Part shown: positions 1 through 11,187 of the stretch, one piece after another | Layout: each line of letters opens with the position of its first letter | How positions within the stretch are numbered: the stretch's first letter is position 1 | Source: an uncultured Candidatus Saccharimonadales bacterium | Lineage (GTDB): Bacteria; Patescibacteriota; Saccharimonadia; UBA4664 | Length of the DNA: 64,000 nt | Reading direction: 5' to 3' | NCBI GenBank assembly: GCA_964505035.1 | Contig: CAZDGK010000001.1 | Coordinates: 12,270 to 76,269 of the forward strand | Made by a program: the position numbers and the translations under genes | Notes under the pieces: model-generated | What the model saw: the letters and a program-made list of their open reading frames with translations, nothing else | Told to the model about the DNA's origin: nothing | Database searches by the model: none

Positions 1-13
1 GGATGTAGACTTT

Positions 14-658
14 ATGGTTATAACCAGTCCGACCCACTGGATGGGCCACGAAGAACTTGGCCAACGTGCCGATGAAACTGGTCAAATCGTTTCGCAAACA
101 ATTTCTGAAGAACTTGCGGCACGCGGTGGAAACCCTACCCGCCTTATTAACACTAGCGACAACATTCACGGCGATCTTACCAGGCAGCATAGAGGCATTG
201 AAGAAGCCCGCCTATTCAATGATCGCCAATTTACGGCGTTCATGCGCGAGCGCTACGGTGGCCAAGGTCGCGAATTTTGGGATGCGGTTAATGCAGACAC
301 CCACCGTGAACTGCGCGAAAGCCTGGGAGCAGAAGGGCCAGAAGATGTTGCCGCTAGGGTCCAGAGAACAATCGACCTCATTGCGCGTTTTGGCGAATAC
401 TACGAGCATCGCAACCCTGGTCGCAGGCTAGCGACGTTTATTATTACTCACCAAGAAGATCTTGAACCTTACGCGCAGCGTCGGCTAGGTGTTGCACCTG
501 CCGATTTCCAGCCTGGTTACAACGACGGCCTAGAAATCGCCATAGGCGCCGATGGGACAGCGACTGCCACGGTAAATGGACGAGAGTATGAAGCACCGGT
601 AACAACCAATCGGCCCCTTCCAGAGCGACAGCCAGGCGAGGCCGAACCAGGTGAGTAA
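14..658 (+). CDS. Hypothetical protein, probably 5'-truncated by the window edge. It lies in the low-GC island and overlaps the start of the next gene.
   Basis: The reading frame is open back to nt 2. The stop overlaps the start of the 651..3125 ORF. Local GC is about 45-55%. No motif I recognise. Confidence 0.4.
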   Translation: MVITSPTHWMGHEELGQRADETGQIVSQTISEELAARGGNPTRLINTSDNIHGDLTRQHRGIEEARLFNDRQFTAFMRERYGGQGREFWDAVNADTHRELRESLGAEGPEDVAARVQRTIDLIARFGEYYEHRNPGRRLATFIITHQEDLEPYAQRRLGVAPADFQPGYNDGLEIAIGADGTATATVNGREYEAPVTTNRPLPERQPGEAEPGE

Positions 659-3125
659 AAAGCTGAATTTTATACCGATGTACGAGATCGGTATGATCTC
701 GCCGCTTTACCCATGTATCGAGAACGGAGCCACATTTACCGATTTAATGCCGAAACTCGGTTTTTATGGCGACAAACACTTTTTGCTGTATTCAAACTTC
801 AATCTGGCTACCGCATACTACGAAGCCGACGAAATGTTACTATCAGGCAGGTATACATTTAGGCACTTGTCGAAGCCAACGCAGTTCACCCATTTTGTAA
901 ACGGCGTACATGAATCTGTTGCTAGAATACGTCAGTTCCTAGATAGGCTCGATAAGTTGGATGTTTGGACTATGCCGCAGGCAGAGCTAATAGACTTGCT
1001 TATAGAAAACAGCGAGATCGAAGCTAACATCTTCGCCTACTATAACAACACCCAACCTCAGAATTTCGCCATATTTGAACAAAAAATTATGGCGGCTCTG
1101 CGCAAAAAAGGCTTAGCCGAAGACGAAGCAATAGCAGCCATGTCGACGCTAACAACGTCTGAAGTCCCCACCCGTCTTAGCGAAGACGAATCCGACTGGC
1201 TACGTTTGGTCTTGGCGGCCAAACAGCAGCTTCCTTCTGACTGGAAAGCAATACGGCTGGAAAAGACCCACCCTGGCATTTACTCAAAGCTGCAAAAGCA
1301 CTTTGACGTTTATAAAACCCTACTGCTCGGCGATGGAAACTGGCAGCCTGATGTCAGCCATTATGTAAGCCTTCTCCGCAATGACATTGTTCGCCCGGCT
1401 GTTGAGCTGAATGAACGCCTAAAAGAACTAACCCAGTTTGCGACCAAGACTAAAGTGGCTAAAGCCGCACTCATTAAGCGCCTGGCGCTAACTGACGACA
1501 TAGTATTTTATGCTCATGTTATTAGCGAAGTAGGACATGTAAGGCTAATGATGCGAATAGATGGATTTATGCCGCTCGCCTATGCCAACGACAAGCCAAT
1601 CGTCGAGGCCCTAGCCCGCACATACAAGCTAGGTTCCCCAGAATTCAGATACATCACCTATGATGAGCTACTTAGCCTGCGCTCAAAGAATCCGCAACTA
1701 AACGCAGCAGAACTGAAGCGCCGGTTCAAGGAAAAGCACTTCCTTCTGATAGTAAACAATGGCAAGTACGAAATGTTGTTTGGCAAAAGTGCAGATATGG
1801 CCTTCGCCAAACTTGTGCCAGAAGCAAATTACTATACCGTAGAAGAGTTGTCGGGTAGTACAGCAATGGGCGGTCGCGTCAAAGGTATGGCCGTTGTATT
1901 TAACTGGGGTGACAATCTGCAAGATGCGCTAGACAAACTGCCTAAAGATGCCATTTTGGTGGCCGGTCAGACTAGGCCGCAGCTAATGCCATTAATCCGC
2001 GCGAGTAAAGGAATTATTACCGACGAGGGTGGTGTTATGAGCCACGCTGCGATAGTTGCTCGCGAGTTAGAAATGCCATGCATCGTAGGAACAAAAGTAG
2101 CGACAAAAGTGCTAAGGACAGGCGACTTAATCGAGCTAGATGCTGACAACGGTGTAATTAAGGTTATAGAGCACACTAACAAGACCAAAGCCGCACTATC
2201 TTACAAACGTATGTCTGCAACACAAAAGACAAAGAAGCTTGCCGGTAAGCCGGCAAGCACAACGTTGGTCGTTCAGCCCATTCTGCAATTCGATGAAATT
2301 AAGCAAGGCGAAACGGGTCTGGTTGGCGGTAAGGGCGGATCACTAGCTGCACTTTCGCGGGCGGGGCTGCCAGTTCCACCAGGGTTTGTGGTTACTACAG
2401 AATGCTTTAGGGCGTTTTCGACAAGCAAGATACCCGGCGACGTTCAAAAGAAGATCCTCGCAGCCTTCGACAAACTAGGGATAGATTATGTTGCGGTTCG
2501 GTCTTCGGCGATTGCAGAAGATTCTAAAGACACGTCCTGGGCCGGCCAGTTCGATACCCTATTGAATGTTACTCGCGATGGTTTAATTGCAGCAATTCAG
2601 AGCTGCTGGTATTCTGCCGAATCTGACTTGGTGCAGGATTATGCCAAAGATAACAAAATCGGGCGCGAAGATTTGGCACTTGCAGTGGTGGTTCAGGCAA
2701 TGGTTTCTAGTGATGTGTCTGGCGTGGCGTTTACCCACAACCCAGTTACCGGCGCCGCAAACGAAATAATGATAGAGGCCTGCTTTGGACTTGGTGAGAT
2801 GTTAGTCCAGGGCATGGTGACGCCAGATAACTTCTTGGTTGATAAGCAAGATTTAAGCGTTATGTCGCACGCGGCCAATAAACAACAGGTCATGCTCAGT
2901 TATGTGAAGGGCCAAAACATTGAGCTGCCCGTGCCTAACCCTAAAGCCAGTAAGCTTACTAAAACCCAACTGTTGGTAGTCGCTGGCCTTGCAAAGCGCA
3001 TAGAAGACTTCTACGGCACACCTCAAGACATTGAATGGGCGATGTCTAAGGGCCGAGTATACATAGTCCAATCACGCCCCATCACAACGCTGAAATCTTC
3101 TCGTCGTAAGGCGTCAAAGACCTAG
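651..3125 (+). CDS. PEP-utilising-enzyme / rifampin-phosphotransferase-like protein with permuted domain order: an N-terminal domain of unknown function, then a swivel phosphohistidine domain, then a C-terminal PPDK_N-type ATP-grasp domain.
   Basis: Phosphohistidine domain motif: 'GIITDEGGVMSHAAIVARELEMPCIVG'. The C-terminal half carries 'GGKGGSLAAL...LPVPPGFVVT...VAVRSSAIAEDS....IVQSRPIT', typical of the PEP-synthase/PPDK N-terminal nucleotide-binding domain. 824 aa. GC about 45% versus about 63% elsewhere. Confidence 0.75.
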   Translation: MSKKLNFIPMYEIGMISPLYPCIENGATFTDLMPKLGFYGDKHFLLYSNFNLATAYYEADEMLLSGRYTFRHLSKPTQFTHFVNGVHESVARIRQFLDRLDKLDVWTMPQAELIDLLIENSEIEANIFAYYNNTQPQNFAIFEQKIMAALRKKGLAEDEAIAAMSTLTTSEVPTRLSEDESDWLRLVLAAKQQLPSDWKAIRLEKTHPGIYSKLQKHFDVYKTLLLGDGNWQPDVSHYVSLLRNDIVRPAVELNERLKELTQFATKTKVAKAALIKRLALTDDIVFYAHVISEVGHVRLMMRIDGFMPLAYANDKPIVEALARTYKLGSPEFRYITYDELLSLRSKNPQLNAAELKRRFKEKHFLLIVNNGKYEMLFGKSADMAFAKLVPEANYYTVEELSGSTAMGGRVKGMAVVFNWGDNLQDALDKLPKDAILVAGQTRPQLMPLIRASKGIITDEGGVMSHAAIVARELEMPCIVGTKVATKVLRTGDLIELDADNGVIKVIEHTNKTKAALSYKRMSATQKTKKLAGKPASTTLVVQPILQFDEIKQGETGLVGGKGGSLAALSRAGLPVPPGFVVTTECFRAFSTSKIPGDVQKKILAAFDKLGIDYVAVRSSAIAEDSKDTSWAGQFDTLLNVTRDGLIAAIQSCWYSAESDLVQDYAKDNKIGREDLALAVVVQAMVSSDVSGVAFTHNPVTGAANEIMIEACFGLGEMLVQGMVTPDNFLVDKQDLSVMSHAANKQQVMLSYVKGQNIELPVPNPKASKLTKTQLLVVAGLAKRIEDFYGTPQDIEWAMSKGRVYIVQSRPITTLKSSRRKASKT

Positions 3126-3534
3126 CAAATAACTTTGTGGCTTACTGCCGGCCGGCATTACAACGAGATTGCCTGCTCTACCCTCAAGGATGTAGTACAT
3201 GAAATCTGACTCATGTTCAACGAGTGTGGTTTCGTGTCCATTTTCCGCGTCGATCAGTACAAAACCGGCTTTGTCGCTTAGTTCCCGGCTGGGAAATATT
3301 TTGCCTTAATGCCGACTTTATCAAAAGAAATAGTCGAGGGTTCATGAATTACATACATGCTGAGTGTATAGCGAATCTATGTCATAGCTATGTGGACCTT
3401 GCAAAAGTTTGGACATCCTATCTCTCCTGCCAGTAATTATCTATTTATTGCCTCCACAAAGCCCTGGCTGGTATACTATGCCAGACCTCAATCAGTCTGT
3501 CCGGATTCGTCCGGCAGCTCAGAAGGGTGGCGAC

Positions 3535-4041
3535 ATGTCCGACATACAGCCAATAACGAGCGGACCATGGTATTACTGTGCCCTCGTGACCATCCTCGTT
3601 GGATGGCCCCTCACGCTCGACGCGCTTTTGCGCTGGCCCTCCAGCTATCGCAAAGCCGGCCTGCACAAGTGGAAGTGGGTCACAGCGGCCCTCCTCTCCA
3701 ATCTGCTGTTCTACCCGGGGCTCGTCTTCGCGATCGTCTATCTCTTCAGCGCACGCGCTAAAATCAGGGCGACCAAACCCCGCCCCATACGCGATGCGTT
3801 CCGGGAAGCGAGAGAAACCAGCAACTCCGGCGGCTCCGGCAGCACCAGCGGCTCCACCACTGGTAGCGGACGGGGATCGACCGGCAGCAAGCGGCAATCG
3901 TTTATGCCGGACCGGCCGGCACATGTGCCAACCAAGCGGACACCCGTGCCCTGCGGCGCATGCCGGGCGACCGGACGCAACCCAGACGGCACCGTCTGCA
4001 CCTCGTGCGGCGGAAGCCGCAATGTGATTGGCACCTTCTAA
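3535..4041 (+). CDS. Small membrane protein (2-3 TM helices) with a C-terminal double CxxCxGxG (DnaJ-type) zinc-finger motif.
   Basis: An AGAAGGG Shine-Dalgarno (SD) sequence precedes the ATG at 3535. Hydrophobic segments present. C-terminus reads 'CGACRATGRNPDGTVCTSCGGSR'. An upstream in-frame extension to 3409 is possible. Confidence 0.5.
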   Translation: MSDIQPITSGPWYYCALVTILVGWPLTLDALLRWPSSYRKAGLHKWKWVTAALLSNLLFYPGLVFAIVYLFSARAKIRATKPRPIRDAFREARETSNSGGSGSTSGSTTGSGRGSTGSKRQSFMPDRPAHVPTKRTPVPCGACRATGRNPDGTVCTSCGGSRNVIGTF

Positions 4042-4209
4042 CACTAGGCGCCACTTCAACAGTCCGGCCTCGTGCAGAGGCCGGACTGTTTCATTTCTTC
4101 CGCAAAGTCTCGGTTAACATCCTGCCACCCCTTCCATGAACTATAATTCTGCACAAGAAAGACCCGCCCAAGAGGCGGGCCTGTCTTGTCTAGGGTTTCG
4201 TGGCTGCTG

Positions 4210-4650
4210 TTAGAATATTTTGAAGGATGAGATTCTGTCGTTCAGCGCACTTCCTACCCAGGGCACGAAGCCACCTTGGGCGCTGGTTGTGATCCAGCCG
4301 GCACCGCCGCCGGTACAGTTGTTTGTGTCATAGAAGTACACAATGCTGCCATAGTTTAGGTTTGAAACCAGAGAGCTTGCCCGGTTGTCAAACGAGAAAG
4401 CGCCATTAACCATAGGGATGCAGGTATTGGCTGGCGGCACACTAAAACCTACCTGCGTGCCGCTATAGTTAATGTCTTGCCAGAAACAGATCGAATTCGA
4501 CCAACACGCGGCCTGGGCGGTTGCTGTCTGCACCATGGCTAGCGGCGAAACGAAAGCCAAGCTCATGCTGAGCAAGACCAGCGCATGGCGGGCAAGTTTA
4601 ATGTTACGGAGTCTTAGTGCGCCCGAGCGCACCGTCTGAAGAAACTTCAT
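4210..4650 (-). CDS. Secreted protein with a beta/gamma-crystallin (peptidase-inhibitor I36 / killer-toxin-like) fold.
   Basis: Signal peptide 'MKFLQTVRSGALRLRNIKLARHALVLLSMSLAFVSPLAMVQTATAQA'. A GGAGGG SD precedes the ATG at 4650. Paired Cys/Tyr/Trp motifs ('CWSNSICFWQDINYSG', 'FDNRASS', 'NDRISSFKI'). Confidence 0.5.
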   Translation of the reverse strand: MKFLQTVRSGALRLRNIKLARHALVLLSMSLAFVSPLAMVQTATAQAACWSNSICFWQDINYSGTQVGFSVPPANTCIPMVNGAFSFDNRASSLVSNLNYGSIVYFYDTNNCTGGGAGWITTSAQGGFVPWVGSALNDRISSFKIF

Positions 4651-4751
4651 ACGACCCTCCAGTGAATTTGTAAAATACACCCTAGTAATTTCATTATAAC
4701 GCTTATGTCTAGTCCGGTCGGTCAAGGGATTACTTCTGGTATACTCTGCTT

Positions 4752-5939
4752 ATGGTTAAGGCCGCTTCTACTCCCGCCACAGCCAGCGCAATCCAGCTCA
4801 GTGCCTGGGCAATAATTGTGCTTACGGTCATCGCCGGCGCTGCCACCCTGCTCATGCCGGCGCCGGCTGGCCAATCTGCCGGCACCTTCCACGGTGAGTT
4901 CGCCACCTCACTGATGGTCGTAGTACTCAATTTGGGCGCTGCCGCCTTATTCCTGGTCAGCCTGGGCGGCTTCAGCGCCAAGCTCAAATTAGCCTACGTA
5001 GCCATGTGTGCCGCCTTCGTGGCTCAGAGTATCGGCTTCGTCCAAATCCCGTTGCTCAGTATTGCAGGCGAGCTCGGTTCGGCTTGGGTCAAGCAAGGCT
5101 GGGTGGTGCTGCCGTTCCTGTCCAGCGCCCTACTGACCTATTTTGGCGTCCGCGGGTTTGCCCGGTTATTTGGGGTGCGCGGGTGGCTGACATCCATCAG
5201 CCTCACTCAAGCAATCGTGGTCGCGGTAGCGGTCCTGCTCACGTTTATGCCGCACGCACCCTGGCACGAGTCCGAATTTTCCTTCGATGCCACCATCGCG
5301 CTCGAAGTCATTTCAGGGCTGGAGTGCACCTTTGCCGCCATGCTGGCCTTTCAGGTCAGTCGCCAGTCTAGCCAGCTCTACAAGCTACCGATGCAGCTCC
5401 TTACTGCCGGGCTCATTAGCGAGATTGCTAGCGTCCTCATCCAGGTACCGGCAGCTTTCCTGCTCACCAACGGTCTCGACTTGACGGCCAATGGCACAGC
5501 CATCGCGCCCCAAGTTGTCGGTGGAGTTATCTTGGTCTGGGCGGCGGTAGCCTTCCATGGCGTGCCATCGCGAGAACAAGCCGCTCTGCCGAGCGCAGTC
5601 TCAGAAGCCGGCCGGACCGCCCTCGACGCCGTGATGAGCCTGGCCAGCCTTGTCTCCGCGCCCGCCGGTATCGAATCATCCAGTGAGACACTGCGAGTAA
5701 TTACCTCCAATCTCCAGCCCGGTCAGGCCATTTCGCCCGAGGACGAGGACCGTCTGGCGCAATGTTATCTCGCCATCGAGAGCTACCTGGACAAGCGCGA
5801 GTTGGTCAGGCCTCAGCCGGTCGCCGCCATGCGCAACCGCACCGAGCTGGTATATGGCGAGGCGCTCACCCAGTCTAAGTTTTGGCAGACCGTTCGCCAG
5901 ACTCCTCCAGGTGCCGGACCCGCCCTCTCCAGCGCGTAG
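4752..5939 (+). CDS. Polytopic integral membrane protein of unknown function.
   Basis: 395-aa ORF with at least 8 hydrophobic helices and GC3-biased codons. Confidence 0.6.
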   Translation: MVKAASTPATASAIQLSAWAIIVLTVIAGAATLLMPAPAGQSAGTFHGEFATSLMVVVLNLGAAALFLVSLGGFSAKLKLAYVAMCAAFVAQSIGFVQIPLLSIAGELGSAWVKQGWVVLPFLSSALLTYFGVRGFARLFGVRGWLTSISLTQAIVVAVAVLLTFMPHAPWHESEFSFDATIALEVISGLECTFAAMLAFQVSRQSSQLYKLPMQLLTAGLISEIASVLIQVPAAFLLTNGLDLTANGTAIAPQVVGGVILVWAAVAFHGVPSREQAALPSAVSEAGRTALDAVMSLASLVSAPAGIESSSETLRVITSNLQPGQAISPEDEDRLAQCYLAIESYLDKRELVRPQPVAAMRNRTELVYGEALTQSKFWQTVRQTPPGAGPALSSA

Positions 5940-6010
5940 TCGATTATTTACAAAGCCAGTAAAAAAGTTTAATATAGGCAAGTCCAGTCCCAACTCCATA
6001 GGAGTGGCCC

Positions 6011-6367
6011 ATGAATCTACACATGTTCAACACCGAGGACGGCTACGCGCTCTGGGGCGCGTTCCTGACCGGCACTCACAACGACGGCGATGGCGGCATT
6101 CACATCTACGAGTGGTGGTTCACCATCGCCCGCACCGAGGAAGAGGCCCGTAAGACCCTGGAGGGTCCGGCAGAGGCGCGCAAGGCGCGATTCAGCTGGC
6201 ACGCGCACGATCCCGGCACCATCGAGTACCGGACCATCGGCCCGTCAGAGCTGGTCGTCTGCTGGCGTCTCCCCGTCGGCGACCACTACCTCAAGCCGGT
6301 GAAGCTGACGCATCCCAGCGCCAGCGGTCTCAACGTGACGGCCGCGCTGATCGACATGCGCAGCTAG
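6011..6367 (+). CDS. Hypothetical cytoplasmic protein.
   Basis: GGAG sits 7 nt before the ATG. Strong GC3 codon bias. No recognisable motif. Confidence 0.5.
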   Translation: MNLHMFNTEDGYALWGAFLTGTHNDGDGGIHIYEWWFTIARTEEEARKTLEGPAEARKARFSWHAHDPGTIEYRTIGPSELVVCWRLPVGDHYLKPVKLTHPSASGLNVTAALIDMRS

Positions 6368-6465: not shown

Positions 6466-6918
6466 GTGGTGACAAAAATCACTGAGTTCTCGTTCGAGAT
6501 CCGTTACACCGGCAACCCTCAGATCGGCAGCGGCGTGTTCGCCACTCACTCCATCGAGGCGGGCGCCATCATCCCCGGCGGCATATTGCTGCCCAGGCGC
6601 TCAGACTGCCGCGTGCTCCACGAATCCGACTTCCCGTCGGGGCTCAAGCACTTCACCAAGTACTGCGTCGCCAAGGACGTCGACGAGTGGTACTGCCCAT
6701 GGGACTTTGCTCGCATGGAAAACGGCTGGCGACTCAACCACGCCGACGAGCATGCCCAGGATCCAGCCGCCCAGCCGAGCCTCCGAATTGGCCCAGACTG
6801 GGAGCTGGAAGTCGTGCGGTTCATCGCCGCCGACGACGAAGTGCGCTGCGACTACAACCAGTTCGGCGAACCAATCCGCCGGCGCAAGCCCTACTACTAC
6901 AAGGGCGTAGTAGACTAG
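6466..6918 (+). CDS. SET-domain protein, a putative protein-lysine methyltransferase.
   Basis: 'GSGVFATHSIEAGAII' matches the SET N-terminal GxG region. 'RLNHADEH' is NHxC-like. 'EVRCDYNQFG' is ELxFDY-like. 150 aa. Confidence 0.55.
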   Translation: MVTKITEFSFEIRYTGNPQIGSGVFATHSIEAGAIIPGGILLPRRSDCRVLHESDFPSGLKHFTKYCVAKDVDEWYCPWDFARMENGWRLNHADEHAQDPAAQPSLRIGPDWELEVVRFIAADDEVRCDYNQFGEPIRRRKPYYYKGVVD

Positions 6919-10589: not shown

Positions 10590-11126
10590 TCAGATCTCCA
10601 GCTCGGTGCAGCTACCAGGCTCCACCTCGAGCTTCCAAGTCTCCTCGTTGGACATCCCGCGCACCACAGCCAGTATCGAGTACACCACCCACTGCGATGT
10701 CACCACCAGCACAGCGTCATAGGACCGGGTACGCAATTCATCAATAAAACTACCCGCACGTACCTTGATGTCCTCAATCGACTCACCGCCGTTGAAGCGG
10801 GCCGTCCAGCGATTCGGCGCCGCCTCGAGCGCGTCCTTGAGCTCCTTGAATGGCCGGCCCTCAAACCCAGAGCGATGCTCATCCAGCCGCCGGTCAATCT
10901 CAATGGGCAGGTGATGAAACTGGTTAATAATCTCGGCCGTCTGCCGCGTTCGCTTCAGTTCTGACGCCATGATCCTGTCCAGCTGCACATCCTTTAGCCG
11001 CCTAGCCACAGCTTCAGCCTGCTCAATACCCACTGCCGTCAGGTGTACATCCACCGCCGGGTCGTAGTTGCATATATGCAGGTCGTTATAATTGGTGCGG
11101 CCGTGCCGGACCAGATAGAGTTTCAT
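10590..11126 (-). CDS. Histidine phosphatase (phosphoglycerate-mutase-like) family protein.
   Basis: 'MKLYLVRHGRTNYN' RHG motif. ATG at 11124-11126. Confidence 0.75.
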   Translation of the reverse strand: MKLYLVRHGRTNYNDLHICNYDPAVDVHLTAVGIEQAEAVARRLKDVQLDRIMASELKRTRQTAEIINQFHHLPIEIDRRLDEHRSGFEGRPFKELKDALEAAPNRWTARFNGGESIEDIKVRAGSFIDELRTRSYDAVLVVTSQWVVYSILAVVRGMSNEETWKLEVEPGSCTELEI

Positions 11127-11187
11127 AGCTTCATCATAGCGGCTCCCACTGCACAGCACCACCTAGGCAAACTGCTACAATAGCTCT

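What the first reader, a model, noticed from the sequence alone, without database searches (positions are those of the whole stretch)
1..3540. Low-GC island at the window start carrying a permuted PEP-utilising-type phosphotransferase
Spot counts of 60-nt lines give about 43-45% GC for 700-3100, against about 65-70% in typical housekeeping genes. An AT-rich, promoter-like, non-coding stretch lies at 3130-3530. Two overlapping genes sit in the island, followed by a return to host composition at about 3535. This is the signature of horizontally acquired DNA. Its cargo is an 824-aa enzyme of the PEP-synthase / rifampin-phosphotransferase superfamily, so a xenobiotic- or antibiotic-modifying function is plausible.
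Basis: partly seen in the sequence, partly recalled or inferred. Interest (0 to 1): 0.6.

Follow-up and report, generated by a model that had tools for sequence, protein, structure and literature searches.

The report
Acquired low-GC phosphatase–dikinase gene cassette
The first 3.5 kb of the window is a real low-GC patch in a high-GC Saccharibacteria-like chromosome, and it carries a two-gene cassette seen elsewhere only in lower-GC genomes: a divergent histidine-phosphatase-like gene and a rifampin-phosphotransferase-type dikinase whose two usual subunits are fused, which explains the "permuted" domain order; its substrate is unknown.

Summary
Region 1-3530 is 48.8% GC against 60.9% for the rest. 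That is z = -7.9 against other 3.5-kb windows. GC3 is 0.47-0.51 against 0.70-0.84, and the tetranucleotide distance is twice the largest seen elsewhere.

The cargo is a translationally coupled pair:
- A histidine-phosphatase-like gene, cut by the window start.
- An 824-aa enzyme with the domain order substrate-binding domain, His-swivel (His465), ATP-grasp.

The enzyme is not a PEP synthase and not an Rph orthologue. It belongs to the RPH/HpeHI small-molecule dikinase family.

Relatives carry the operon phosphatase-like gene, then H (substrate domain plus swivel, about 505 aa), then I (ATP-grasp, about 276 aa). The window enzyme is therefore an H-I gene fusion. Among 1.84 billion representative proteins only three align collinearly with it. 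The order substrate domain, His domain, ATP-binding domain is already known from glucan water dikinase.

In relatives the cassette matches its 38-51% GC surroundings, and the flanking genes differ between loci. This supports acquisition from a lower-GC donor.

Two points are not shown: absence from close relatives of the host (none are sampled), and any integration machinery.

The substrate is unknown. An antibiotic-modifying role is only a homology-based guess, and the conserved phosphatase partner argues mildly against it.

The parts
1..658 (+). 3' two-thirds of a histidine-phosphatase-like gene. The reading frame is open from window position 2 and the stop codon is TAA at 656-658. The full gene starts 284 nt left of the window, at L087:131, behind an AAGGAG ribosome-binding site.
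   Evidence: L087 is 100% identical to window 1-545 and extends 414 nt upstream. Homologues are 288-338 aa long with conserved RH[SG], GQRA, EG and SH[HS]E motifs. All top 50 Foldseek hits are histidine phosphatases. hhalign against a canonical His_Phos_1 protein gives P = 0.0034 with the motifs collinear. No Pfam or NCBIfam hit.
651..3125 (+). 824-aa fused small-molecule dikinase, made of a substrate-binding domain, a His-swivel domain and an ATP-grasp domain.
651..1895 (+). N-terminal, mainly helical domain (residues 1-415), the presumed second-substrate-binding domain, equivalent to HpeH/PpsA and to the rifampin-binding domain of RPH.
   Evidence: No Pfam hit. pLDDT is above 90. Foldseek aligns this domain plus the swivel with RPH structures 5fbu/5fbt over about 585 columns, E = 3e-13. 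The family profile reaches RPH residues 699-866. Invariant residues in P0001 numbering are E134, H208, R289, R293, E330 and R349.
1941..2153 (+). Phosphohistidine swivel domain (residues 431-501) with the motif T457-DEGGVMS-H465.
   Evidence: PF00391, E = 3.8e-24. Motif position. It matches the T/SxxGGxxxH motif described for HpeH and RPH (PMC12167813).
2154..2282 (+). Linker of low model confidence that joins the former H and I subunits (about residues 502-544).
   Evidence: pLDDT is below 50 for P0001 residues 502-529. In the split relatives the H stop codon and the I start codon overlap or abut at this point.
2283..3125 (+). C-terminal ATP-grasp (PPDK_N) nucleotide-binding domain (residues 545-824).
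3126..3450 (.). Low-GC spacer (36-50% GC). It holds two short minus-strand ORFs (3114-3200 and 3278-3358) without homology support. Whether this stretch is acquired DNA or the host's own intergenic DNA is unresolved.
3146..3156 (+). TGCCGGCCGGC, the only copy in the 64-kb window. The same 11-mer lies at L087:1-11, 130 nt upstream of the phosphatase-like gene's start. It is a candidate flanking direct repeat and is unverified.
   Evidence: The expected number of matches in the window is 0.2.
3448..3477 (+). Promoter-like site (TTGCCT, 18-nt spacer, TATACT, with an extended-TG element) ahead of the host-like gene 3535-4041. Its -10 region belongs to a 14-nt motif repeated at 4736-4749.

Best explanation
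The low-GC stretch is DNA acquired by a high-GC (about 61%) Saccharibacteria-like chromosome from a lower-GC donor, probably another Patescibacterium. It carries a self-contained, translationally coupled two-gene cassette.

Gene 2 is a small-molecule dikinase of the RPH/HpeHI/PpsAB type. Its ATP-grasp domain takes the beta-phosphate of ATP and gives AMP + Pi. The phosphate goes onto His465 of the swivel domain. The swivel domain then moves to the N-terminal helical domain and phosphorylates a bound acceptor, most likely a hydroxyl group of a small molecule.

The 'permuted' order arose because the usually separate genes for subunit H (acceptor-binding domain plus swivel) and subunit I (ATP-grasp) became fused in their gene order H then I.

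Gene 1 is a divergent member of the histidine-phosphatase fold with its catalytic residues intact. It most likely hydrolyses the phosphoester product or a downstream intermediate. Alternatively it resets the phospho-His enzyme.

What is shown: the composition, the domain content and order, the catalytic motifs, the fusion, and the conserved pairing. What is inferred: the dikinase chemistry, the phosphatase activity, and the direction and source of transfer. What is unknown: the acceptor substrate.
For: Composition: 48.8% against 60.9% GC, z = -7.9; GC3 0.47-0.51 against 0.70-0.84; tetranucleotide distance 0.0375 against a maximum of 0.0193 elsewhere.

Host: the window carries ATP synthase, DnaB, DnaX, CysRS and SHMT genes. 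The CysRS clusters at 90% identity or more with a 'Candidatus Saccharimonas sp.' protein.

Cassette elsewhere:
- The fused form is in L001 (about 51% GC) and in L002-L006 (about 46% GC).
- The split form is in L088 (39%), L089/L090 (38%), L091 (42%) and L093.
- In all but L093 its GC and GC3 match those of its neighbours.
- Nothing but the cassette is shared in synteny with the window.

Pairing: the phosphatase-like gene is present in 7 of 7 distinct loci that carry this N-domain subfamily, and in 0 of 80 loci with other dikinases.

Enzyme family:
- Pfam PEP-utilizers and PPDK_N.
- The N-domain plus swivel aligns with RPH 5fbu/5fbt.
- The TxxGGxxxH motif is present (PMC12167813).

Fusion: relatives have H and I genes that overlap or abut. 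Only P0001-P0003 align collinearly among 1.84 billion representatives. They are also each other's nearest relatives in the N-domain and the ATP-grasp domain.

Left side: an independent Logan assembly, L087, shows 50 nt of 70% GC to the left of the cassette's promoter region.
Against: - No close relative of the host could be found, so an empty site could not be shown.
- No tRNA, integrase or transposase lies in or beside the region.
- The right-hand junction is seen only in the one NCBI contig, so an assembly chimera is not formally excluded.
- The phosphatase assignment is weak. There is no Pfam, NCBIfam or PDB sequence hit. The model has a mean pLDDT of only 63, and the Foldseek E-values are 7e-5 or weaker.
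- Nothing bears on the substrate. No riboswitch was found, and no further gene is consistently associated.
Confidence: 0.7

Rival explanations
1. The low-GC stretch is an assembly or binning chimera. DNA from a lower-GC Patescibacterium in the same sample was joined to the high-GC contig near its end, so there is no real island.
For: The region lies at the very start of the window. The homologous cassette in L001 also lies at the end of its contig, with the upstream gene cut. The right-hand junction (about 3100-3540) is covered only by the NCBI contig. The Logan contigs recovered cover window positions -414 to 545, 3871-4842 and 4566-6093.
Against: L087 comes from a separate run and assembly, and it shows 70% GC sequence immediately left of the cassette's promoter. 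The spacer grades into a promoter motif that is shared with another host gene. A comparable junction between a low-GC cassette and high-GC DNA is reproduced in two independent assemblies for L093 and L094.
Confidence: 0.1
2. The cassette is an antibiotic- or xenobiotic-inactivating determinant, that is, an Rph-like resistance kinase. It would have been acquired because it protects the epibiont from a host-made or environmental compound.
For: The closest solved structures are rifampin phosphotransferase and HpeI. RPH-family members are reported as widespread small-molecule dikinases, some of which act on antibiotics (PMC12167813, PMC4844700). rph-like genes have been counted as resistance-like genes in CPR genomes (PMC8651080). 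The cassette is mobile and self-contained.
Against: The protein scores 251.6 bits against the 999-bit cut-off of the Rph equivalog model. The N-domain is about 16% identical to RPH in the structural alignment. Its invariant residues are charged: E134, H208, R289, R293, E330 and R349. The obligatory phosphatase partner would undo a simple inactivating phosphorylation.
Confidence: 0.12
3. The region is a long-resident native operon. Its low GC would reflect gene-specific constraints rather than transfer.
For: The operon family is widespread in Patescibacteria, so vertical inheritance in the host lineage is conceivable. In every locus the phosphatase-like gene is somewhat GC-richer than the dikinase, which is a gene-intrinsic bias.
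Against: Third codon positions, which are the least constrained, differ by 0.2-0.35 from all 20 host genes tested. The tetranucleotide signature is an outlier. In other genomes the cassette follows the local GC.
Confidence: 0.06

Closest known systems
Two-component small-molecule dikinases: HpeHI (Rhodococcus), CreHI (Corynebacterium) and phenylphosphate synthase PpsAB (Thauera/Aromatoleum) (PMC12167813)
   Different: Here the two subunits are fused into one 824-aa chain. No sequence-level match to HpeH was obtained for the N-domain; it has no Pfam or NCBIfam hit. The hosts are Patescibacteria with no aromatic-catabolism genes nearby. A dedicated histidine-phosphatase-like gene directly precedes the enzyme gene. 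The substrate is unknown.
Rifampin phosphotransferase RPH (Listeria monocytogenes; PDB 5hv1, 5fbs/t/u; PMC4844700)
   Same: The same three domain types are present, and presumably the same ATP to His to acceptor dikinase mechanism. It is the best structural match overall.
   Different: The domain order in RPH is ATP-grasp, RIF-binding, swivel; here it is binding domain, swivel, ATP-grasp. The score is 251.6 bits against the 999-bit cut-off of NF041857. Identity outside the ATP-grasp domain is about 16%.
Plant and algal alpha-glucan, water dikinase GWD1 (PMC13553574)
   Same: The N-to-C order is the same: substrate-binding part, His domain, C-terminal ATP-binding domain. In starch metabolism GWD acts in a cycle with phosphoglucan phosphatases (the cycle is from my own knowledge).
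   Different: GWD binds its substrate through CBM45 modules and a central domain and is about 1400 aa long. No homology of the N-domain to GWD was tested or found here.
PEP synthase (PpsA) and pyruvate phosphate dikinase
   Same: They share homologous ATP-grasp and swivel domains.
   Different: The window protein lacks the PEP/pyruvate-binding TIM-barrel domain (PF02896). It scores 291 bits against the 739.75-bit cut-off of TIGR01418. The domain order differs.
Histidine phosphatase superfamily, branch 1 (PhoE, SixA, RosC, Sts, PGAM5)
   Same: The partner protein has collinear RH[SG], R, E and H motifs and a matching predicted fold. JGI names one member 'broad specificity phosphatase PhoE'.
   Different: It is too divergent for PF00300 or for any NCBIfam model. 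It carries an insertion of about 100 residues between the core elements, and this insertion has low model confidence (residues 143-202).

Membership tests
PEP synthase (pyruvate, water dikinase) | A C-terminal PEP/pyruvate-binding TIM-barrel domain (PF02896), and a score above the TIGR01418 or NF005057 cut-off | tested here: not met
   There is no PF02896 hit. The protein scores 291.2 bits against a 739.75-bit cut-off and 304.9 bits against a 598-bit cut-off.
Rifamycin-inactivating phosphotransferase Rph | A score at or above the equivalog cut-off of NF041857 or NF000283 | tested here: not met
   The protein scores 251.6 bits against 999 and 174.1 bits against 1700.
Rifamycin-inactivating phosphotransferase Rph | Domain order ATP-grasp, RIF-binding domain, His-swivel | tested here: not met
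   The order here is binding domain (residues 1-415), swivel (431-501), ATP-grasp (545-821).
Rifamycin-inactivating phosphotransferase Rph | Phosphorylation of rifamycins, or resistance to them | not testable with these tools
   This needs an enzyme assay or MIC measurements.
RPH/HpeHI-type small-molecule dikinases (superfamily level) | An ATP-grasp nucleotide-binding domain homologous to that of RPH or HpeI | tested here: met
RPH/HpeHI-type small-molecule dikinases (superfamily level) | A swivel domain with the catalytic His in a T/SxxGGxxxH motif | tested here: met
   PF00391, E = 3.8e-24. The motif T457-DEGGVMS-H465 is present. The motif definition comes from PMC12167813.
RPH/HpeHI-type small-molecule dikinases (superfamily level) | A second-substrate domain with the RIF-binding-domain fold (not the PEP-binding TIM barrel) | tested here: inconclusive
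Two-component dikinases (HpeHI/CreHI/PpsAB) | H and I encoded as separate polypeptides | tested here: not met
   The window gene is one 824-aa ORF. Its relatives in L088, L089, L091 and L093 are split.
Histidine phosphatase superfamily (partner gene) | The catalytic RHG-type motif, plus a second Arg, a Glu and a His, in collinear order on the phosphoglycerate-mutase-like fold | tested here: met
   The motifs RH[SG], GQRA, EG and SH[HS]E are conserved. hhalign against a canonical PF00300 protein aligns them collinearly, P = 0.0034 but probability only 9.5%. All top 50 Foldseek hits are histidine phosphatases, best E = 7e-5, on a model with pLDDT 63.
Histidine phosphatase superfamily (partner gene) | A match to Pfam PF00300/PF00328 at the gathering score | tested here: not met
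   There is no Pfam hit even at E <= 10.
Genomic island (horizontally acquired DNA) | Composition that deviates from the host genome | tested here: met
   z = -7.9 for GC. GC3 and tetranucleotide composition are both outliers.
Genomic island (horizontally acquired DNA) | Absence from the same site in closely related genomes | not testable with these tools
   The host genome is not among the 185,579 GTDB species representatives scanned. The neighbouring host proteins have no usable relatives. The left-flank DNA is not found in the JGI metagenomes.
Genomic island (horizontally acquired DNA) | Integration signatures: a flanking tRNA, an integrase or transposase, or direct repeats | tested here: inconclusive
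   There is no tRNA in the window, and no mobility gene among the ORFs up to 12.5 kb. The one candidate is an 11-nt repeat, TGCCGGCCGGC, at L087:1-11 and at window 3146-3156.

The most novel reading that the evidence does not exclude
The histidine-phosphatase-like protein and the H-I dikinase form a dedicated, mobile phosphorylation/dephosphorylation module that is specific to Patescibacteria. It would act on a scavenged metabolite or on a host-derived polymer, in the way GWD and phosphoglucan phosphatases cycle phosphate on starch. Alternatively the phosphatase would act on the phospho-His swivel itself, as SixA does on HPt and NPr.

The module would belong to a much larger, undescribed system. 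In that system one ATP-grasp 'loader' serves many paralogous acceptor-binding/swivel modules. These appear as gene arrays with up to 8 paralogues, and as single proteins with up to 6 swivel domains.
Probability: 0.2. Interest if true: 0.75.

Novelty: new variant of a known kind. Interest (0 to 1): 0.42.

Why it matters
Patescibacteria have tiny genomes, so a self-contained cassette that they keep and exchange is likely to matter for their epibiotic lifestyle.

This one pairs an ATP-dependent dikinase of the rifampin-phosphotransferase/HpeHI type with a dedicated phosphatase-like protein. That pairing gives a concrete two-protein system to express and screen for substrates. The fused form is convenient for biochemistry because it is a single chain.

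The fusion also documents how a 'circularly permuted' multidomain enzyme can arise simply by joining adjacent subunit genes.

As a case of horizontal transfer it is ordinary.

Tried and rejected
- **Recovering the left flank or the full NCBI contig.** The exact-protein look-up of P0001 failed. P0263 and P0266 gave only 1-1.5 kb Logan contigs. A scan of the JGI metagenomes for the left-flank DNA found nothing.
- **Finding host relatives for a synteny or empty-site test.** The genome-contig scan did not return the host genome or any close full-length relative. The neighbouring 395-aa protein has one 1.4-kb JGI relative. The neighbouring 168-aa protein has none.
- **Plasmid DNA search with the island.** No match.
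- **Viral contigs.** Only one distant swivel-domain hit was found, so there is no evidence for a phage vehicle.
- **My first reading of the minus-strand 3114-3358 as a frameshifted cupin gene.** No Pfam hit at E <= 1, and no tblastn or tblastx match in 1.3 Mb of related loci or in the window. I dropped it.
- **Riboswitch or other RNA upstream of the operon as a clue to the ligand.** None was found in the window or in seven related loci.
- **Sequence-only identification of the partner protein.** Pfam, NCBIfam and PDB phmmer/hmmsearch all found nothing. Identification needed motifs, hhalign and fold search.
- **An error of mine.** In one search the GC3 row for the gene at 3535-4041 was computed out of frame. 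Its true GC3 is 0.76, which is host-like.

Full report
**Observation**

A sliding-window profile shows 43-56% GC over window 1-3450 and a rise to 59-67% from about 3450-3600 onward. At 2-kb resolution the rest of the window stays at 56-65%.

Computed directly, 1-3530 is 48.8% GC and 3531-64000 is 60.9%. 3.5-kb windows outside the region have mean 61.0%, sd 1.6 and minimum 57.0%, so the island lies at z = -7.9.

GC3 is 0.47 for the upstream gene and 0.51 for the enzyme, against 0.70-0.84 for 20 host genes. The strand-symmetrised tetranucleotide distance to the rest of the window is 0.0375, against a maximum of 0.0193 for any other 3.5-kb window.

The anomaly is therefore real and far beyond chance.

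The gene at 3535-4041 is host-like, with a true GC3 of 0.76. My row for it was computed out of frame.

**Host**

The window is a bacterial chromosome. It carries F-ATPase alpha and beta subunits, a class II aminoacyl-tRNA synthetase, DnaX, DnaB, CysRS and SHMT.

Its CysRS falls in a 90%-identity cluster with a protein that NCBI names as from 'Candidatus Saccharimonas sp.'. The contig is an 82,376-nt NCBI record.

No tRNA gene is present in the window.

**Anatomy of the region**

- An ORF is open from window position 2 to the TAA at 656-658.
- A Logan contig from a separate run, L087, is 100% identical to window 1-545. It extends 414 nt further left.
- L087 shows that this gene starts 284 nt left of the window, behind an AAGGAG site. 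Upstream of the start lie about 80 nt of 37.5% GC, and beyond that 50 nt of 70% GC.
- The 824-aa ORF 651-3125 overlaps the first gene by 8 nt. Residues encoded upstream of the later ATG at 678 match the family consensus LxFxxxYEV, which favours the GTG start at 651.
- Downstream, 3126-3450 is 36-50% GC and has no supported ORF.
- A promoter-like site at 3448-3477 precedes the next, host-like gene. Its extended -10 region belongs to a 14-nt motif repeated at 4736-4749, ahead of another + strand gene. The last 80 nt or so of the 'AT-rich spacer' are therefore probably host promoter DNA.
- Promoter-like sites are not enriched: 2 were found in 3000-4800 against 1.1 expected.

**The enzyme**

Pfam finds PEP-utilizers (the swivel domain) at residues 431-501 and PPDK_N (the ATP-grasp domain) at 545-821. 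Nothing is found in residues 1-415. PDB sequence matches show the same order.

There is no PEP/pyruvate-binding domain. All NCBIfam equivalog scores lie far below their cut-offs: PEP synthase 291 bits against 739.75, and Rph 251.6 bits against 999. The protein is therefore neither a PEP synthase nor an Rph orthologue.

An AlphaFold2 model built on 34 family sequences has a mean pLDDT of 81. The N-domain and the swivel are mostly above 90, and the linker (P0001 residues 502-529) is disordered.

Structural matches:
- Foldseek's best hits are the RPH ATP-grasp domain (5hv6, E = 5e-15) and HpeI (9goj, E = 1.5e-14).
- RPH structures 5fbu/5fbt align over about 585 columns, that is, the N-domain plus the swivel.
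- A profile of the family reaches RPH residues 699-866.

The catalytic motif is T457-DEGGVMS-H465. It matches the T/SxxGGxxxH motif described for HpeH and RPH (PMC12167813).

**Why the domains are 'permuted'**

Among the 120 best database hits, the N-domain occurs in three forms:
- Canonical single chains, in the order grasp, N-domain, swivel.
- Many proteins of about 500 aa with only the N-domain and the swivel.
- The order N-domain, swivel, grasp, found only in P0001 (the window protein), P0002 and P0003.

The 500-aa proteins sit in a constant operon: a gene of about 300 aa without Pfam hits, then the N-domain-plus-swivel gene (H-like), then an ATP-grasp gene of about 276 aa (I-like). The stop and start codons overlap or abut. 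This is seen in L088, L089/L090, L091/L092 and L093/L094.

This is the two-component layout described for HpeHI, CreHI and phenylphosphate synthase PpsAB (PMC12167813). The window enzyme is thus an H-I fusion in gene order, joined by a flexible linker.

An exhaustive HMMER pass over 1.84 billion representative proteins found only P0001-P0003 collinear with the query. A few distant, evidently independent fusions with a C-terminal grasp domain also turned up: P0260, P0262, P0224 and P0151.

The three fused proteins are each other's nearest relatives in the N-domain (40% identity) and in the grasp domain (54-55%). P0003 occurs on seven contigs from several samples, so the fusion is not an assembly artefact.

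The order substrate domain, His domain, C-terminal ATP-binding domain is already known from glucan water dikinase (PMC13553574).

**The partner gene**

The upstream ORF is homologous to the gene that precedes the dikinase in every locus examined:
- 60-61% identity to the L002 protein and 37% to the L001 fragment.
- 44-45% identity to P0126 and P0127.
- HMM E-values from 1e-31 to 1e-136 across the loci.

It was found in 0 of the 80 GTDB loci that carry other dikinases of the superfamily.

Sequence libraries give no hit. Three lines of evidence nevertheless point to the histidine-phosphatase superfamily:
- The family conserves RH[SG], GQRA, EG and SH[HS]E motifs.
- hhalign against the host's own canonical His_Phos_1 protein (10590-11162, minus strand) aligns these motifs collinearly over 180 columns. 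P = 0.0034, but the probability is only 9.5%.
- All 50 best Foldseek matches of the AlphaFold2 model are histidine phosphatases such as RosC, Sts-2, phosphoserine phosphatase and acid phosphatases. The best E-value is 7e-5, and the model has a pLDDT of 63.

JGI names one member 'broad specificity phosphatase PhoE'. I regard the fold and the catalytic residues as probable, and the activity as inferred.

**Horizontal acquisition**

In the relatives the cassette's GC and GC3 equal those of its neighbours: L001 about 51%, L002 about 46%, L088 39%, L089 38% and L091 42%.

The flanking genes differ between loci. Nothing but the cassette is shared with the window, apart from an unlinked TatC at 34% identity.

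L093 and L094 offer a second example. There a low-GC (36-49%) cassette abuts 60-67% GC DNA, and the junction is reproduced in two assemblies.

Together with the composition data, this supports transfer from a lower-GC donor into the 61% GC host.

What could not be done:
- The host genome is not among the GTDB species representatives.
- The neighbouring host proteins have almost no relatives in 5.8 billion proteins or in the JGI contigs.
- The left-flank DNA is absent from the JGI metagenomes.

Absence from close relatives is therefore untested. The right-hand junction is covered only by the NCBI contig, so a chimera remains a minor rival.

The only possible integration signature is the 11-mer TGCCGGCCGGC. 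It occurs once in the 64-kb window, at 3146-3156, which is 21 nt after the enzyme's stop codon. It occurs again at L087:1-11, which is 130 nt before the partner gene's start codon. This was noticed after the fact. The left copy lies at a contig end. I report it as unverified.

**Function**

The best-supported mechanism is that of the RPH/HpeHI family. ATP binds in the grasp domain. The beta-phosphate passes to His465, releasing AMP + Pi. The swivel domain then delivers the phosphate to an acceptor held by the N-domain.

The acceptor is unknown. There is no riboswitch, and no third gene is consistently associated with the operon.

The invariant N-domain residues are charged: E134, H208, R289, R293, E330 and R349. 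This, together with the obligatory phosphatase partner, fits a metabolic phosphorylation/dephosphorylation module better than a one-way antibiotic-inactivating kinase. That is inference only.

rph-like genes have been counted as resistance-like genes in CPR genomes on homology alone (PMC8651080).

**Verdict**

This is a genuine compositional island with probable horizontal origin. Its cargo is a rare fused variant of a known enzyme kind, together with a conserved, previously unannotated phosphatase-like partner.

It is a new variant of a known kind and of moderate interest. The broader arrays of swivel-module genes seen in related loci are the more unusual lead.

Noticed in passing
L011:3-13240; L016:2250-12230; L023:2683-13407; L010:9338-15883; proteins P0128, P0130, P0137: Some MAG loci hold tandem arrays of 5-8 paralogous genes, each encoding a variable domain plus a His-swivel, followed by a single stand-alone ATP-grasp gene. 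Some single proteins have one ATP-grasp domain followed by up to six swivel-bearing modules; P0128 is 2648 aa. This suggests that one ATP-loading module serves many acceptor modules. I found no description of it in the papers searched.
   Followed up: partly
L093:1-6153 and L094: The split phosphatase/H/I cassette, at 36-49% GC, abuts 60-67% GC DNA from about position 3800 onward. The junction is reproduced in two independent Logan assemblies. This is a second case of the cassette lying beside high-GC DNA.
   Followed up: partly
window 4210-4725 (-), with hairpins at 4058-4090 and 4160-4182: A secreted peptidase-inhibitor I36 family gene has atypical composition (51% GC, GC3 0.59) in the 61% GC host. 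It is separated from the convergent gene 3535-4041 by two strong terminator-like hairpins. It may be a second foreign patch.
   Followed up: no
window 3468-3481 and 4736-4749: The 14-nt motif CTGGTATACTNTGC (an extended -10-like TGGTATACT) is repeated just upstream of two + strand genes. It may be a host promoter element that lies very close to the start codons.
   Followed up: no
window 3146-3156 and L087:1-11: The 11-mer TGCCGGCCGGC brackets the two-gene cassette. It occurs only once in the 64-kb window, against an expected 0.2 matches. It could be a target duplication or a coincidence.
   Followed up: partly
window 3114-3200 (-) and 3278-3358 (-): Two short minus-strand ORFs in the spacer read like the halves of a frameshifted small gene. 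No Pfam match was found, and no match in the related loci.
   Followed up: yes
L089:4331-4668: In one relative a tRNA gene (4584-4668), itself preceded by a GIY-YIG nuclease gene, lies directly upstream of the cassette. This is a classical setting for insertion.
   Followed up: no
window 10590-11162 (-): The host has its own canonical His_Phos_1 protein (PF00300, E = 3.7e-42). In the hhalign alignment, the position of the second catalytic His reads SQW rather than SHG.
   Followed up: no
window 6466-6918 (+): A 150-aa ORF has a borderline SET-domain match: 23.0 bits against a 22.4-bit cut-off.
   Followed up: no
L096:4931-7319 (IMG/VR contig IMGVR_UViG_3300032156_000026): A predicted viral contig carries a 209-aa ORF with a swivel domain (E = 9e-20 to the window's swivel domain), set within a run of three overlapping ORFs. 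It was the only viral hit.
   Followed up: partly
window 1-64000: The GC skew of the + strand is negative almost throughout the window (cumulative -8.8 at 2-kb windows), even though genes lie on both strands.
   Followed up: no
L087:957-980: The last 23 nt or so of the Logan contig (AGATCGGAAGAGCGTCGTGTAGG) look like Illumina adapter sequence; I recognised this from memory. The last 6 residues of P0125 (DRKSVV) are therefore an artefact.
   Followed up: yes
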